Source: a virus
Taxonomy: Duplodnaviria > Heunggongvirae > Uroviricota > Caudoviricetes
DNA length: 9,140 nt
Reading direction: 5' to 3' (one strand)
IMG/VR virus record: IMGVR_UViG_2698536549_000008
In this document: positions 3,569 through 8,312 of the stretch, piece after piece
Numbering within the stretch: the first letter of the stretch is position 1
How the letters are laid out: each line of letters opens with the position of its first letter
Translations under genes and position numbers: made by a program
Notes under the pieces: generated by a model
Told to the model about the DNA's origin: nothing
Database searches by the model: none
What the model saw: only the letters and a program-made list of their open reading frames with translations

Positions 3569-3758
3569 ACTGCAGGCGCTGCGTCAGGCGCGCCTTGATT
3601 TATTAACCGGTAAACGGGTGGTGTCTGTCCAGAAAGATGGTCGCAGAATTGAATATACGGCGGCTTCTCTGGATGAGCTTAACCGTGCGATCAATGATGC
3701 GGAGTCGGTACTGGGGACAACCCGACGTCGCCGTCGTCCGCTGGGAGTGAGGTTATGA
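3552..3758 (+). CDS. W: Head-tail joining / head completion protein (gpW-like)
   Basis: 68 aa, same length as lambda gpW; LLTGKRVVSVQKDGRRIEYTAASLDEL matches lambda [32 protein letters not shown] SD at 3542-3546; start overlaps the A stop. Confidence 0.9.
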   Translation: MVTVAELQALRQARLDLLTGKRVVSVQKDGRRIEYTAASLDELNRAINDAESVLGTTRRRRRPLGVRL

Positions 3759-5347
3759 AACGAACGCCTGTCCTGATTGATGTGAACGGCGTTCCGCTTC
3801 GGGAGAGCCTCAGCTACCACGGGGGCGGTGCAGGATTTGGCGGGCAAATGGCGGAGTGGTTGCCACCGGCGCAGAGTGCCGATGCGGCCCTGCTGCCCGC
3901 GTTGCGTCTGGGGAATGCCCGTGCAGATGATCTGGTGCGCAATAACGGGATAGCGGCTAATGCGGTGGCCCTGCATAAGGATCATATTGTCGGGCATATG
4001 TTTCTTATCAGCTACCGTCCGAACTGGCGCTGGCTGGGGATGCGGGAGACTGCGGCAAAAAGTTTTGTCGATGAGGTGGAGGCGGCCTGGTCGGAATACG
4101 CAGAAGGGATGTTTGGCGAGATCGACGTGGAAGGGAAACGCACGTTCACGGAATTTATCCGTGAAGGTGTGGGCGTTCATGCCTTTAACGGCGAAATCTT
4201 TGTGCAGCCGGTCTGGGATACGGAGAGCACGCAGCTGTTTCGTACGCGTTTTAAAGCCGTGAGTCCGAAACGGGTGGACACGCCAGGGCACGGTATGGGG
4301 AACCGCTTTCTGCGGGCCGGTGTGGAGGTTGATCGATATGGCCGTGCCGTTGCGTACCATATCTGTGAGGATGATTTTCCGTTCTCTGGTAGTGGACGAT
4401 GGGAACGGATCCCGCGTGAACTTCCCACCGGGCGTCCGGCCATGCTGCATATTTTCGAGCCGGTGGAGGACTGGCAGACCCGTGGGGCCAATCAGTTTTA
4501 CAGCGTCATGGAACGGCTGAAGATGCTGGATTCCCTGCAGGCAACACAGCTTCAGTCGGCCATTGTTAAAGCCATGTATGCAGCGACGATTGAAAGTGAA
4601 CTTGATACCGAAAAGGCCTTTGAATATATCGCGGGGGCACCGCAGGGTCAGCAGGATAATCCGCTTATTAATATTCTGGAGAAGTTCTCCAGCTGGTATG
4701 ACACGAATCATGTGACGCTGGGCGGTGTCAAAATTCCGCACCTTTTCCCCGGTGATGATCTGAAACTGCAGACCGCGCAGGATTCAGACAATGGATTTTC
4801 GGCGCTTGAACAGGCGCTGCTGCGGTATATCGCCGCCGGTCTTGGCGTTTCCTACGAACAGTTGTCCCGTGATTACTCGAAGGTCAGTTATTCAAGTGCC
4901 CGCGCCTCTGCCAATGAGTCGTGGCGCTATTTTATGGGACGACGAAAATTTATTGCGGCCCGGCTGGCCACGCAGATGTTTTCCTGCTGGCTGGAAGAGG
5001 CACTTCTTCGGGGGATTATCCGTCCGCCACGGGCACGTTTTGATTTTTATCAGGCGCGATCAGCCTGGTCACGGGCCGAGTGGATTGGTGCCGGAAGAAT
5101 GGCCATTGACGGGCTCAAGGAGGTCCAGGAATCGGTGATGCGTATTGATTCCGGACTGAGCACGTATGAGAAAGAGCTGGCGCTGATGGGTGAGGATTAT
5201 CAGGACATTTTCCGCCAGCAGGTCAGGGAATCCGCAGAGCGGGAAAAAGCCGGACTCTCACGTCCGGTGTGGATAGCGCAGGCGTATCAGCAGCAGATAG
5301 CGGAGAGCCGCAGGCCGGAAGAGGAGACAACACCACGTGAGACGTAA
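3755..5347 (+). CDS. B: Portal protein (gpB-like)
   Basis: 530 aa; long collinear blocks shared with lambda gpB (YHGGGAGFGGQ, GNARADDLVRNNG, FEPVEDWQTRGAN, QLQSAIVKAMYAATIESELDT, LLRYIAAGLGVSYEQLSR, GRMAIDGLKEVQE); ATGA start/stop overlap with W. Confidence 0.95.
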   Translation: MKRTPVLIDVNGVPLRESLSYHGGGAGFGGQMAEWLPPAQSADAALLPALRLGNARADDLVRNNGIAANAVALHKDHIVGHMFLISYRPNWRWLGMRETAAKSFVDEVEAAWSEYAEGMFGEIDVEGKRTFTEFIREGVGVHAFNGEIFVQPVWDTESTQLFRTRFKAVSPKRVDTPGHGMGNRFLRAGVEVDRYGRAVAYHICEDDFPFSGSGRWERIPRELPTGRPAMLHIFEPVEDWQTRGANQFYSVMERLKMLDSLQATQLQSAIVKAMYAATIESELDTEKAFEYIAGAPQGQQDNPLINILEKFSSWYDTNHVTLGGVKIPHLFPGDDLKLQTAQDSDNGFSALEQALLRYIAAGLGVSYEQLSRDYSKVSYSSARASANESWRYFMGRRKFIAARLATQMFSCWLEEALLRGIIRPPRARFDFYQARSAWSRAEWIGAGRMAIDGLKEVQESVMRIDSGLSTYEKELALMGEDYQDIFRQQVRESAEREKAGLSRPVWIAQAYQQQIAESRRPEEETTPRET

Positions 5348-6842
5348 TCTTTCACACATTATTGCCGCAGCATTCAATGAACCGCTGCTTCTGGAGCCCG
5401 CCTATGCGCGGGTTTTCTTTTGCGCGCTCGGGCGCGAGATGGGGGCAGCAAGTCTTTCGTTACCACAACAGCAGGTACAGCTTGATGCTCCCGGGATGCT
5501 GGCTGAAACGGACGAGTACATGGCCGGAGGTAAACGACCGGCCCGTGTTTACCGGGTGGTGAACGGTATTGCGGTACTGCCGGTGACCGGCACGCTGGTG
5601 CACCGGCTGGGTGGTATGCGGCCATTTTCCGGAATGACAGGCTATGACGGCATTGTTGCCTGTCTTCAGCAGGCAATGGCGGACACCTCTGTCCGGGGCG
5701 TACTGCTGGATATTGACAGTCCGGGCGGGCAGGCCGCCGGTGCGTTTGACTGCGCTGACATGATTTACCGCCTCCGGCAGCAGAAGCCGGTCTGGGCACT
5801 GTGTAATGACACGGCCTGTTCTGCGGCCATGCTGCTGGCGTCGGCCTGCTCCCGACGGCTGGTTACCCAGACATCCCGTATCGGCTCCATTGGCGTGATG
5901 ATGGGCCATGTCAGCTATGCCGGTCATCTGGCGCAGGCCGGAGTGGATATCACGCTGATTTATGCCGGGGCGCATAAGGTGGATGGCAATCAGTTTGAAG
6001 CCTTACCGGCAGAGGTGTGTCAGGACATGCAGCAGCGTATTGATGCGGCGCACCGGATGTTTGCCGAAAAAGTGGCGATGTATACGGGGCTGTCTGTGGA
6101 AGCTGTCACGGGGACAGAGGCTGCCGTTTTTGAAGGTCAGTCCGGTATTGAGGCCGGGCTGGCGGATGAGTTAATCAATGCGTCGGATGCCATCAGCGTG
6201 ATGGCTGCGGCGCTGAACACACATGATACAGGAGGCACTATGCCGCAATTAACTGCAACGGAAGCCGCCGCGCAGGAGAACCAGCGAGTGATGGGGATCC
6301 TGACGTGTCAGGAAGCGAAAGGACGTGAACAGCTTGCCACGATGCTGGCAGGACAACAGGGCATGAGCGTTGAACAGGCCCGGGCGATTCTGGCTGCGGC
6401 AGCACCACAGCAGCCGGTGGCATCCGCGCAGAGTGAAGCCGATCGCATTATGGCGTGTGAAGAAGCTAAAGGTCGTGAACAACTGGCGGCAACGCTGGCG
6501 GCGATGCCGGATATGACGGTGGAAAAAGCCCGCCCGATCCTGGCTGCTTCACCGCAGGCGGATGCCGGACCCTCACTCCGTGATCAGATTATGGCTCTGG
6601 ATGAGGCAAAAGGGGCTGAGGCGCAGGCTGAAAAACTGGCGGCCTGCCCGGGAATGACCGTGGAGAACGCCCGGGCTGTGCTGGCTGCGGGATCAGGTAA
6701 GGCAGAACCGGTTTCTGCATCCACAACCGCCCTGTTTGAACATTTCATGGCGAACCATTCACCGGCAGCGGTACAGGGTGGTGTGCCACAGACGTCAGCA
6801 GACGGTGATGCGGACGTGAAAATGCTCATGGCCATGCCATGA
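5337..6842 (+). CDS. C: Head maturation protease (gpC-like, S49/ClpP-fold peptidase) with C-terminal scaffold domain
   Basis: 501 aa; N-terminal two-thirds collinear with lambda gpC (AFNEPLLLEPAYARVFFCAL, NGIAVLPVTGTLV, GAFDCADMI, SRRLVTQTSRIGSIGVMM, ITLIYAGAHKVDGN, GLADELINASDAI). Apparent GTG start at 5337 with GAGGAG 10 nt upstream, overlapping the B stop; start codon choice is uncertain. About 60 aa longer than lambda gpC. Confidence 0.9.
   Translation: MRRNLSHIIAAAFNEPLLLEPAYARVFFCALGREMGAASLSLPQQQVQLDAPGMLAETDEYMAGGKRPARVYRVVNGIAVLPVTGTLVHRLGGMRPFSGMTGYDGIVACLQQAMADTSVRGVLLDIDSPGGQAAGAFDCADMIYRLRQQKPVWALCNDTACSAAMLLASACSRRLVTQTSRIGSIGVMMGHVSYAGHLAQAGVDITLIYAGAHKVDGNQFEALPAEVCQDMQQRIDAAHRMFAEKVAMYTGLSVEAVTGTEAAVFEGQSGIEAGLADELINASDAISVMAAALNTHDTGGTMPQLTATEAAAQENQRVMGILTCQEAKGREQLATMLAGQQGMSVEQARAILAAAAPQQPVASAQSEADRIMACEEAKGREQLAATLAAMPDMTVEKARPILAASPQADAGPSLRDQIMALDEAKGAEAQAEKLAACPGMTVENARAVLAAGSGKAEPVSASTTALFEHFMANHSPAAVQGGVPQTSADGDADVKMLMAMP
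6240..6842 (+). CDS. Nu3: Scaffolding protein (gpNu3-like), in-frame internal start within C
   Basis: ATG at 6240 is in frame with C and preceded by AGGAGG (6230-6235), the strongest SD in the window; gives a 200-aa product sharing the C stop, matching the lambda C/Nu3 nested arrangement. Confidence 0.55.
   Translation: MPQLTATEAAAQENQRVMGILTCQEAKGREQLATMLAGQQGMSVEQARAILAAAAPQQPVASAQSEADRIMACEEAKGREQLAATLAAMPDMTVEKARPILAASPQADAGPSLRDQIMALDEAKGAEAQAEKLAACPGMTVENARAVLAAGSGKAEPVSASTTALFEHFMANHSPAAVQGGVPQTSADGDADVKMLMAMP
6285..6700 (+). repeat. Three tandem degenerate protein-level repeats (~40 codons each) in the C/Nu3 scaffold region
   Basis: Units RVMGILTCQEAKGREQLATMLAGQQGMSVEQARAILAAAAP (from 6285), RIMACEEAKGREQLAATLAAMPDMTVEKARPILAASP (from 6444) and QIMALDEAKGAEAQAEKLAACPGMTVENARAVLAAG (from 6585); lambda has one copy of this motif as recalled (SRIMGILNCEEAHGREEQARVLAETPGMTVKTARRILAAAP). 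The DNA copies differ at many synonymous positions. Confidence 0.6.
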
Positions 6843-6878
6843 AGCCAGTGCTGACCATCAATAGGAGGTTTTAACAAT

Positions 6879-7226
6879 ATGGTGACGAAAACCATCACTG
6901 AACAACGTGCAGAAGTACGTATTTTTGCCGGTAATGATCCGGCTCATACCGCCACAGGCAGCAGCGGGATTTCTCAGGCAACACCGGCACTGACGCCCCT
7001 GATGCTGGATGAAGCCAGCGGGAAACTGGTGGTCTGGGACGGACAGAAAGCCGGTAGTGCGGTTGGCATACTGGTACTGCCGCTTGAAGGCACAGAGACG
7101 GTGCTGACGTATTACAAGTCGGGGACCTTTGCGACGGAGGCAGTCCGCTGGCCTGAAAGTGTGGATGAACACAAAAAGGCCAACGCCTTTGTCGGCACAG
7201 CCCTGAGTCACGCGGCGCTGCCGTAA
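6879..7226 (+). CDS. D: Head decoration protein (gpD-like)
   Basis: 115 aa; DPAHTATG, TPLMLDEASGKLVVWDG, AVGIL, YYKSGTF match lambda gpD motifs (DPAHTATA, TPLMLDTSSRKLVAWDG, AVGIL, FYKSGTF); AGGAGG SD at 6864-6869. Confidence 0.92.
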   Translation: MVTKTITEQRAEVRIFAGNDPAHTATGSSGISQATPALTPLMLDEASGKLVVWDGQKAGSAVGILVLPLEGTETVLTYYKSGTFATEAVRWPESVDEHKKANAFVGTALSHAALP

Positions 7227-7283: not shown

Positions 7284-8312
7284 ATGGGATTGTTTACGAC
7301 CCGCCAGTTACTCGGTTATACCGAACAAAAAGTGAAATTTCGTGCGCTGTTTCTGGAGCTGTTTTTCCGCCGTACGGTGAATTTCCACACCGAAGAGGTG
7401 ATGCTGGATAAAATTACCGGAAAAACGCCGGTGGCAGCCTATGTCTCCCCGGTTGTTGAAGGAAAAGTGCTGCGTCATCGTGGTGGTGAAACCCGCGTGT
7501 TGCGTCCGGGCTACGTCAAGCCGAAACACGAATTTAATTACCAGCAGGCGGTGGAGCGCCTTCCCGGTGAAGATCCGGCGCAGCTGAACGACCCGGCCTA
7601 CCGTCGTCTGCGTATCATCACCGATAACCTCAAACAGGAAGAGCACGCCATTGTCCAGGTGGAAGAAATGCAGGCGGTGAATGCCGTTCTGTATGGCAAA
7701 TACACCATGGAAGGGGAGCAGTTTGATACTGTCGAGGTTGATTTCGGGCGCTCTGAAGGAAATAACATTGAGCAGGCTGACGGTAAAAAATGGTCTGAGC
7801 AGGACCGTGATACGTTTGATCCGACGCATGATATTGACCTCTACTGCGATCAGGCCAGCGGTCTTGTGAATATCGCCATTATGGACGGTACGGTCTGGCG
7901 TCTGCTGAATGGCTTTAAGCTGTTCCGCGAAAAACTGGATACCCGTCGCGGCTCAAATTCACAACTCGAAACGGCAGTGAAAGACCTGGGGGCGGTGGTG
8001 TCTTTCAAGGGGTATTACGGTGATCTGGCCATTGTGGTGGCGAAAACATCTTATGTGGCAGAGGACGGTACCGAAAAACGTTATCTGCCGGAGGGCACGC
8101 TGGTCCTGGGAAATACGGCTGCTGATGGCATCCGTTGCTATGGTGCCATTCAGGATGCGCAGGCGTTGTCCGAAGGTGTGGTGGCCTCTTCCCGTTATCC
8201 GAAACACTGGCTGACCGTTGGCGATCCGGCCCGTGAATTCACCATGACGCAGTCCGCTCCGCTGATGGTGCTGCCGGATCCGGATGAGTTTGTGGTGGTT
8301 CAGGTGAAATAA
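7284..8312 (+). CDS. E: Major capsid protein (gpE-like)
   Basis: 342 aa vs 341 for lambda gpE; collinear throughout (PGYVKPKHE, QVEEMQAVNAVLYGKYTMEGE, KLDTRRGSNSQLETAVKDLG, TGDPAREFTMTQSAPLM, PDEFV); SD-like AAAGGA upstream. Confidence 0.95.
   Translation: MGLFTTRQLLGYTEQKVKFRALFLELFFRRTVNFHTEEVMLDKITGKTPVAAYVSPVVEGKVLRHRGGETRVLRPGYVKPKHEFNYQQAVERLPGEDPAQLNDPAYRRLRIITDNLKQEEHAIVQVEEMQAVNAVLYGKYTMEGEQFDTVEVDFGRSEGNNIEQADGKKWSEQDRDTFDPTHDIDLYCDQASGLVNIAIMDGTVWRLLNGFKLFREKLDTRRGSNSQLETAVKDLGAVVSFKGYYGDLAIVVAKTSYVAEDGTEKRYLPEGTLVLGNTAADGIRCYGAIQDAQALSEGVVASSRYPKHWLTVGDPAREFTMTQSAPLMVLPDPDEFVVVQVK

What the first reader, a model, noticed from the sequence alone, without database searches (positions are those of the whole stretch)
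6229..6242. Strong internal ribosome-binding site for in-frame scaffold (Nu3) expression
AGGAGG followed 4 nt later by ATG 6240, in frame with C, is the best SD match in the window. It is placed exactly where a nested scaffolding protein sharing the C terminus of the protease would start, as in lambda C/Nu3. That such a strong SD lies inside a coding region argues that the internal start is used.
Basis: partly seen in the sequence, partly recalled or inferred. Interest (0 to 1): 0.4.

Follow-up and report, generated by a model that had tools for sequence, protein, structure and literature searches.

The report
Known internal start for phage scaffold
The strong ribosome-binding site inside the head-protease gene is real and marks the start of the nested scaffolding-protein gene, but the same start is already annotated in phage 21 and has an equivalent in lambda, so it is an ordinary, known feature.

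Summary
AGGAGG lies at 6230-6235, followed by CACT and ATG 6240, in frame with the 501-codon S49 protease/scaffold ORF (5337-6842). The nested product is 200 aa.

The window is a phage 21-like head operon from an E. coli prophage. Both phage 21 GenBank records annotate this RBS and CDS as gene 6, the scaffolding protein, which is 96% identical to the product here.

Within the window alone the motif is not statistically remarkable, and it is not uniquely the best SD. Comparison with relatives is what makes the case. An in-frame ATG sits at the protease/scaffold boundary in every full-length relative examined. In the enterobacterial lambdoid lineages a GGAG core precedes it in different codon registers, over changing amino acids. 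That pattern argues for selection on the RNA motif, not the peptide.

Lambda carries the identical AGGAGG-N4-ATG at 5342, giving a 131-aa, 13.4-kDa product. The database nu3 start at 5132 is not the homologous site.

The most likely mechanism is efficient internal initiation that makes abundant scaffold, alongside scarce full-length protease made from a weak GTG start coupled to the portal gene. The shared C-terminus would then carry the protease into the procapsid. Translation itself was not tested.

Verdict: already known, low interest.

The parts
6230..6235 (+). Shine-Dalgarno sequence AGGAGG of the nested scaffold gene. In the C frame it encodes part of Thr-Gly-Gly.
   Evidence: duplex energy -10.3 kcal/mol. 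Annotated as an RBS in phage 21. The GGAG core is conserved in the lambdoid relatives in different codon registers.
6240..6842 (+). Nested in-frame scaffolding-protein gene (phage 21 gene 6 / lambda Nu3 equivalent), 200 aa, sharing its stop codon with C.
   Evidence: 96% identical to phage 21 gp6. Matches PHROG 8399 'head scaffolding protein', 1.3e-35, in 3 stretches. 54% identical to lambda Nu3 over the module.
5337..6842 (+). Full-length gene C / gene 5, 501 codons with a GTG start. It has an N-terminal S49 (SppA-like) prohead protease domain followed by the scaffold domain. Its start overlaps the end of the portal gene B (3755-5347) by 11 nt.
   Evidence: 53% identical to lambda gpC; PF01343, 6.9e-34; SppA structures; start context.
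6276..6413 (+). Scaffold module copy 1 (phage 21 'Tri1 box').
6432..6557 (+). Scaffold module copy 2 (phage 21 'Tri box').
6573..6698 (+). Scaffold module copy 3 (phage 21 'Tri3 box').

Best explanation
The AGGAGG-CACT-ATG at 6230-6242 is the translation-initiation region of a nested gene. Ribosomes load internally on the late head-operon mRNA and translate the last 200 codons of gene C in the same frame. The product is the scaffolding protein, the equivalent of phage 21 gp6 and lambda gpNu3. Full-length C (S49 protease plus scaffold domain) starts at a GTG that overlaps the end of the portal gene, so it is probably made in small amounts by translational coupling. The strong SD and ATG of the internal start should give much more scaffold. 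Because the two proteins share a C-terminal scaffold domain, a few protease molecules co-assemble with the scaffold into the procapsid, where the protease later removes the scaffold. Shown here: the sequence anatomy, the homology, the conservation of the start across lineages, and the domain boundary. Inferred: that the start is used, the relative yields, and the co-assembly logic. The inferences rest on established lambda C/Nu3 biology (Shaw & Murialdo 1980; Ray & Murialdo 1975; Medina et al. 2010, 2011), known to me only from memory and from reference lists in PMC8508860, PMC3224144 and PMC9295703.
For: (1) The site has exact positional identity with the annotated RBS and gene 6 CDS of phage 21, with 95.5% DNA identity and 96% protein identity.
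(2) The start lies immediately after the S49 domain, and the nested product matches scaffold families.
(3) Lambda has the same AGGAGG-N4-ATG at the aligned position. It is the strongest in-frame internal SD-start in lambda C.
(4) All 13 annotated phages examined have an in-frame ATG at the boundary, from Escherichia, Salmonella, Aeromonas, Vibrio, Xylella, Burkholderia and Pectobacterium hosts, down to 27-33% identity. The upstream SD-like element is strong in the lambdoid phages (-9.3 to -12.0 kcal/mol), moderate in Sano, BcepNazgul, Chi and MA11 (about -6.4 to -6.9), and weak in phiARM81ld, K288 and FelixO1 (-3.8 to -4.3). Two of these records (Sano, BcepNazgul) independently annotate the nested gene.
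(5) In 86 distinct full-length C genes, the strongest in-frame SD-ATG falls at the boundary in 78: 73 by an automatic window covering about 9% of the gene, plus 5 assigned by eye because the boundary motif was not found.
(6) Across 13 enterobacterial lambdoid lineages the peptide over the SD varies (TGGT, RGGT, SGGR, KGGD, LGGT, PGERN, TQENT, TKENT, TQEDR) while GGAG persists in shifted codon registers. This points to selection on the RNA.
(7) Negative control: the equally strong AAGGAGGT inside the portal gene (5117-5124) has no GGAGG at that position in phage 21, lambda or D2, although the LKEV peptide is kept.
(8) Synteny is portal - C/Nu3 - decoration - major capsid.
(9) The local RNA is not unusually structured (z = +0.56), so the SD should be accessible.
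Against: No protein, ribosome-profiling or N-terminal data exist for this element or were retrievable. Within the window alone the motif counts are compatible with chance. The 4-nt spacer is at the short end of the efficient range, though lambda uses the same spacing. Some distant relatives (phiARM81ld, K288, FelixO1) have only weak SD-like elements before the boundary ATG. PGAP annotation of the nearest E. coli prophage lists only the full-length peptidase. The 86 genes in the conservation count are not phylogenetically independent; roughly 15-17 lineages are represented.
Confidence: 0.93

Rival explanations
1. The AGGAGG is a by-product of coding: a Gly-Gly flexible linker or protease cleavage site at the end of the S49 domain that happens to be spelled GGA GGN. 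The following Met is an ordinary internal residue. Only full-length C is translated, and any scaffold-sized species arises by proteolysis.
For: A Gly at this column is nearly invariant in the protein alignment (G299). Motif counts in the window are at chance level. An equally strong SD-like motif inside the portal gene is clearly just coding.
Against: GGAG persists where the peptide is Q-E or G-E rather than G-G, in a shifted codon register. The ATG follows in frame in every full-length relative. GGA is used for the first Gly codon in every Gly-Gly lineage shown. By my own knowledge, lambda genetics defined Nu3 as a separate cistron overlapping C (Shaw & Murialdo 1980, cited in PMC8508860).
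Confidence: 0.04
2. The internal SD acts as an elongation pause site, through anti-SD pairing with translating ribosomes. The pause would give the protease domain time to fold before the scaffold domain emerges, and the site would not be an initiation site.
For: The position at a domain boundary would suit co-translational folding. The SD is strong.
Against: This reading does not explain the conserved in-frame ATG 4-9 nt downstream. It does not explain why distant relatives with weak SD-like elements still keep the ATG. By my own knowledge, SD-induced pausing has been largely attributed to profiling artefacts. A pause role could also coexist with initiation.
Confidence: 0.02
3. The scaffold start is elsewhere: at the position equivalent to the database lambda nu3 start (inside the protease domain), or at Met-319 (MGILTCQEAK).
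For: GenBank and RefSeq lambda annotate nu3 at 5132. In-frame GTG-318 and ATG-319 have a moderate SD-like CAGGAG upstream (-7.4).
Against: The residue aligned with lambda Met-239 is Ile here, so no start exists at that position. Lambda 5132 has only a weak, distant SD (-6.9), against -10.8 at 5342. A start at Met-319 would cut into the conserved scaffold module, and it is far weaker than 6240. The 131-aa product from lambda 5342 weighs 13,394 Da, which matches the 13.4 kDa I recall for purified gpNu3. PHROG 8399 'head scaffolding protein' has a 131-position profile.
Confidence: 0.01

Closest known systems
Phage 21 genes 5 and 6 (GenBank M81255.1, annotated with RBS, gene 6 CDS and Tri1-3 boxes; OL657228.1 CPT_21_05/06 'capsid protease/scaffolding protein' and 'scaffolding protein')
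   Same: The architecture is the same base for base. GTG-started 501-codon gene 5; RBS and ATG of gene 6 at the same offset (codon 302); 200-aa product 96% identical; three Tri repeats; same flanking portal, shp (decoration) and major capsid genes.
   Different: About 4.5% nucleotide divergence. The 14 nt just upstream of the SD differ, giving peptide NTHDT here and NSNVR in phage 21, so the SD is ACAGGAGG here and AGAGGAGG in phage 21 (-10.3 vs -12.0 kcal/mol). The element here sits in an E. coli chromosome as a prophage.
Bacteriophage lambda C / Nu3 overlapping genes
   Same: S49 protease gene with an in-frame nested scaffold gene sharing the C-terminus. Identical AGGAGG-N4-ATG at the aligned position (lambda 5332-5344). 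GTG start of C overlapping the end of portal gene B. 53% identity over C.
   Different: Lambda's product from this site is 131 aa, with one scaffold module and a long Ser/Thr/Ala-rich linker. Here it is 200 aa, with three modules and a short linker. Database lambda records place nu3 at 5132 (201 aa), which is not the homologous site.
Other nested protease/scaffold gene pairs, such as phage Mu I/Z and herpesvirus UL26/UL26.5 (from my own knowledge, not tested here)
   Same: The same logic applies: a protease and an abundant scaffold share a C-terminal capsid-binding domain because the scaffold is expressed from an internal in-frame start.
   Different: The protease folds are unrelated (herpesvirus assemblin, and a different protease class in Mu), and in herpesviruses a separate promoter is used rather than an internal RBS. 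No sequence homology was tested.

Membership tests
Lambda-type C/Nu3 (phage 21 gene 5/6) nested protease-scaffold gene pair | The long ORF has an N-terminal S49 (SppA-like) serine protease domain. | tested here: met
   Pfam PF01343, 6.9e-34, residues 146-293. SppA structures 3rst and 4kwb, about 1e-15. PHROG 53 'head maturation protease', 5e-147.
Lambda-type C/Nu3 (phage 21 gene 5/6) nested protease-scaffold gene pair | An in-frame internal ATG preceded by an SD, located just after the protease domain. | tested here: met
   AGGAGG 6230-6235, ATG 6240, codon 302. This is the strongest in-frame internal SD-start in the gene.
Lambda-type C/Nu3 (phage 21 gene 5/6) nested protease-scaffold gene pair | The nested product is homologous to the known scaffold proteins gp6 and gpNu3. 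| tested here: met
   96% identical to phage 21 gp6. 54% identical to lambda Nu3 over the module, E = 1e-17. PHROG 8399 'head scaffolding protein', 1.3e-35.
Lambda-type C/Nu3 (phage 21 gene 5/6) nested protease-scaffold gene pair | Gene order terminase - W - portal - C/Nu3 - decoration protein - major capsid protein. | tested here: met
   ORF map. Annotations of phage 21, lambda and the nearest E. coli prophage.
Lambda-type C/Nu3 (phage 21 gene 5/6) nested protease-scaffold gene pair | The internal start is conserved across relatives at the nucleotide level, independently of the encoded peptide. | tested here: met
   An in-frame boundary ATG is present in all full-length relatives. In the 13 enterobacterial lambdoid lineages aligned, GGAG lies within about 15 nt upstream in three codon registers. 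Three distant relatives have only weak SD-like elements.
Lambda-type C/Nu3 (phage 21 gene 5/6) nested protease-scaffold gene pair | The nested protein is actually synthesised from the internal start, in molar excess over C. | not testable with these tools
   Requires proteomics, N-terminal sequencing or ribosome profiling. No such data were found in the held literature.
Lambda-type C/Nu3 (phage 21 gene 5/6) nested protease-scaffold gene pair | The product acts as a procapsid scaffold and is removed by the protease. | not testable with these tools
   Inferred from lambda biology (Ray & Murialdo 1975; Medina et al. 2010, 2011), seen only as citations in PMC3224144, PMC9295703 and PMC10695390.

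The most novel reading that the evidence does not exclude
The most novel reading not excluded lies beside the start site, which is itself known. The number of 42-aa scaffold modules downstream of the start varies from 1 to 4 among otherwise syntenic lambdoid head operons (1 in lambda and phi80-like phages, 2 in L048 and L069, 3 here and in phage 21 and Gifsy-1, 4 in L056 and L063). This variation could be an adaptive, recombination-driven tuning of scaffold valency or length. The phage 21 record still labels these 'Tri boxes' as 'function unknown'. A minor corollary is that the GenBank and RefSeq lambda nu3 coordinate (5132) is probably a legacy mis-annotation, with the conserved start at 5342.
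Probability: 0.25. Interest if true: 0.3.

Novelty: already known. Interest (0 to 1): 0.08.

Why it matters
The finding has little discovery value. The nested scaffold gene and its RBS were annotated in phage 21 decades ago, and the principle was established for lambda C/Nu3 in 1980. The practical value is for annotation. Automated pipelines (PGAP on the nearest E. coli prophage, and several phage records) call only the full-length S49 peptidase and omit the scaffold gene. The reference lambda records carry a nu3 start that is not the conserved, SD-preceded one. The comparative pattern reported here gives a simple rule for annotating the scaffold gene in the lambdoid members of this large family: an in-frame ATG directly after the S49 domain, preceded by GGAG 4-9 nt upstream.

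Tried and rejected
- Within-window statistics. AGGAGG, AGGAGG-N3-10-ATG and GGAG-N4-11-ATG are all at or near chance, so the window alone cannot establish function.
- Tandem Repeats Finder found nothing in 6200-6900, because the modules are too diverged at the DNA level. They were recovered with the repeat finder (71% identity for copies 1 and 2) and by protein alignment.
- RNA folding of 6190-6290 gave no special structure (z = +0.56). A structural RNA element was therefore rejected.
- The CII-binding-site match on the minus strand at 6245-6258 (TTGCN6TTGC) is annotated in OL657228. It occurs once against 0.72 expected, so it was rejected as chance.
- The AAGGAGGT at 5117-5124 in the portal gene was considered as a second internal start. 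It was rejected because it lies 10-13 nt from GTG/ATG and has no GGAGG counterpart in phage 21, lambda or D2.
- Pfam has no family for the scaffold part.
- Literature. Medina et al. 2010 and 2011, Casjens & Hendrix 2015 and the phage 21 head-gene paper are not held. No held paper states the Nu3 start or mass.
- Structure prediction and the large protein-database searches were not run, because they would not bear on whether an internal start is used.

Full report
**1. What is in the sequence**

One search shows ...gatac AGGAGG cact ATG ccg caa tta act....

The ORF list has a 501-codon ORF at 5337-6842 that starts with GTG. ATG 6240 is 903 nt (301 codons) downstream, in the same frame. The nested ORF 6240-6842 encodes 200 aa, MPQLTATE...LMAMP, with a mass of 20.5 kDa and pI 4.7.

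**2. Is it more than chance within the window?**

Not on the window alone.
- AGGAGG occurs three times on the + strand (5118, 6230, 6863), against 3.5 expected from shuffles.
- AGGAGG-N3-10-ATG occurs twice (the site in question, and the decoration-protein gene start at 6879), against 0.49 expected. 18 of 200 shuffles reach that count.
- By anti-SD duplex energy the site scores -10.3 kcal/mol. That is stronger than the SDs of the other annotated genes examined in the window, except shp/D (-10.9).
- It is weaker than AAGGAGGT inside the portal gene (-12.1), which lies 10-13 nt from the nearest GTG or ATG.

'Best SD in the window' is therefore only approximately true.

**3. Context**

The window is a lambdoid head operon: terminase small and large subunits, W, portal (3755-5347), C (5337-6842), decoration protein (6879-7226), major capsid protein (7284-8312), then FI-like and FII-like genes.
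- It is 99.4% identical to a prophage in E. coli CFIAFB20190157, and related prophages occur in most complete E. coli genomes.
- The C region is 95.5% identical to phage 21.
- The N-terminal 300 residues of C form an S49/SppA-type peptidase domain: PF01343 at residues 146-293, 6.9e-34, and SppA crystal structures at about 1e-15.
- The C-terminal 200 residues match PHROG 'head scaffolding protein' and 'capsid assembly protein' families.

**4. The feature is already annotated**

GenBank M81255.1 (phage 21 head gene operon) annotates a putative ribosome_binding_site and the gene 6 CDS. Mapped through the alignment offset, these are window 6229-6233 and 6240-6842. The complete phage 21 genome OL657228.1 annotates the same CDS as 'scaffolding protein', with its RBS. 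The product here is 192/200 identical to phage 21 gp6.

PGAP annotation of the nearest E. coli prophage, and several phage records, list only the full-length peptidase.

**5. Comparative evidence that the start is functional**

*Lambda.* Aligning C with lambda gpC (53% identity) puts 'DTGGTMPQLT' opposite lambda 'LSGGRMTKETQ'. The lambda DNA there reads tc AGGAGG gcga ATG acc, which is the same hexamer, the same 4-nt spacing and the same frame. It is by far the strongest in-frame internal SD-start in lambda C: -10.8, against -6.9 for the next.

*Annotated phages.* In 13 annotated phages, with 27-96% identity to the query, every C gene has an in-frame ATG at the end of the S49 domain. The nested products are 129-200 aa.
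- The SD-like element 4-9 nt upstream is strong in the lambdoid phages (-9.3 to -12.0 kcal/mol).
- It is moderate in Sano, BcepNazgul, Chi and MA11 (about -6.4 to -6.9).
- It is weak in phiARM81ld, K288 and FelixO1 (-3.8 to -4.3).
- Xylella phage Sano and Burkholderia phage BcepNazgul independently annotate the nested gene.

*IMG/VR loci.* Among 80 loci plus the annotated phages there are 86 distinct full-length C genes. The strongest in-frame SD-ATG falls at the boundary in 78. Of these, 73 fall inside an automatic window covering about 9% of the gene. Five more were assigned by eye at Met-306, because the boundary motif was not found. In the remaining full-length genes the boundary ATG is still present. 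These genes are not independent; they represent roughly 15-17 lineages.

*Register shifts.* Across 13 enterobacterial lambdoid lineages, the peptide encoded over the SD changes: T-G-G-T, R-G-G-T, S-G-G-R, K-G-G-D, L-G-G-T, P-G-E-R-N, T-Q-E-N-T, T-Q-E-D-R. The GGAG core persists, sometimes in a shifted codon register, for example ACA CAG GAG AAT ACG ATG. The flanking linker is otherwise poorly conserved. This is the signature of selection on the mRNA motif rather than on the protein.

*Negative control.* The stronger AAGGAGGT inside the portal gene encodes a conserved LKEV, but there is no GGAGG at that position in phage 21, lambda or D2.

*RNA structure.* The RNA around the site is not unusually structured (z = +0.56).

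**6. Mechanism**

Shown: the anatomy, the domain boundary, the homology and the conservation.

Inferred:
- Internal initiation at ATG 6240 yields the scaffold.
- Full-length C starts at a GTG that overlaps the last 11 nt of the portal gene. It is probably translated at a low level by coupling.
- The result would be a small amount of protease and a large amount of scaffold with a common C-terminal domain, so the protease is carried into the procapsid.
- This is the lambda C/Nu3 model (Shaw & Murialdo 1980; Ray & Murialdo 1975; Medina et al. 2010, 2011). I could see these papers only as citations, and the content is from my own knowledge.

**7. A correction to the lambda comparison**

GenBank J02459 and RefSeq NC_001416 place nu3 at 5132-5737, giving 201 aa. 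That Met has four problems:
- It lies inside the S49 domain.
- It has only a weak, distant SD (-6.9).
- It aligns with Ile in this window.
- It is not conserved in the family.

The conserved site at 5342 gives 131 aa and 13,394 Da. This matches the 13.4 kDa I recall for purified gpNu3 (memory, unverified) and the 131-position PHROG 8399 'head scaffolding protein' profile.

**8. Why 200 aa here**

The scaffold part contains three copies of a module of about 42 aa, (E/D)xxRIMGILxCxEAKGREQLAxxLAxxPGMTVExARxILAAAP. They lie at 6276-6413, 6432-6557 and 6573-6698 and correspond to the 'Tri boxes' of M81255. Lambda has one copy. IMG/VR relatives have 1, 2, 3 or 4 copies.

**9. Rivals**

- A coding by-product (Gly-Gly linker) is contradicted by the register shifts and by the conserved in-frame ATG.
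- An elongation-pause role does not explain the ATG.
- Alternative starts, either the lambda-5132 equivalent or Met-319, are absent or much weaker, and Met-319 would truncate the conserved module.

**10. Verdict**

The feature is already known and is annotated at the same position in phage 21. Interest is low. The residual value is for annotation: the scaffold gene is missing from PGAP calls, and the lambda nu3 coordinate appears to be a legacy one.

Noticed in passing
L003 (NC_001416) 2333 vs 2543, i.e. lambda 5132 vs 5342; also J02459 (L014): The reference lambda records annotate nu3 at 5132 (201 aa), inside the S49 domain, behind a weak SD, at a non-conserved Met. The conserved AGGAGG-N4-ATG is at 5342 and gives 131 aa, 13,394 Da. 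This is probably a legacy mis-annotation. HK630 copies it.
   Followed up: partly
window 6276-6413, 6432-6557, 6573-6698; L047, L048, L056, L063, L069: The ~42-aa scaffold module (phage 21 'Tri boxes', annotated 'function unknown') is present 3 times here, once in lambda and phi80-like phages, and 2 or 4 times in IMG/VR relatives. Nested-product length therefore ranges from about 131 to 236 aa in otherwise syntenic head operons.
   Followed up: partly
window 5117-5124 (+), inside the portal gene: AAGGAGGT is the strongest anti-SD match in the window (-12.1 kcal/mol). In-frame GTG 5135 and ATG 5138 lie 10-13 nt downstream. It encodes a conserved LKEV, but there is no GGAGG at that position in phage 21, lambda or D2, so it is most likely a coding by-product.
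   Followed up: yes
window 6245-6258 (-): TTGCAGTTAATTGC matches the CII-binding consensus TTGCN6TTGC just inside the nested gene, and is annotated as a CII site in OL657228. It occurs once against 0.72 expected by chance, so there is no support for function.
   Followed up: yes
window 6216-6229 vs L001 2380-2393: The 14 nt immediately upstream of the SD differ sharply between this window (NTHDT) and phage 21 (NSNVR), within an otherwise ~95% identical gene. Both versions recur in IMG/VR loci, which suggests two allelic linker variants or a small mosaic patch ending exactly at the SD.
   Followed up: no
window 5337 (GTG) / 5347 (portal stop): Gene C starts at a GTG that overlaps the end of the portal gene by 11 nt, as in lambda, phage 21, Gifsy-1 and D2. 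This is consistent with low-level, translationally coupled expression of the protease.
   Followed up: partly
L097 7340-8367 (NZ_CM143728.1); L049, L070, L071: In the nearest E. coli genome the major capsid gene of this prophage is flagged as frameshifted. Three IMG/VR relatives have truncated or frameshifted C genes. Some copies of this head module are therefore decaying prophages.
   Followed up: no
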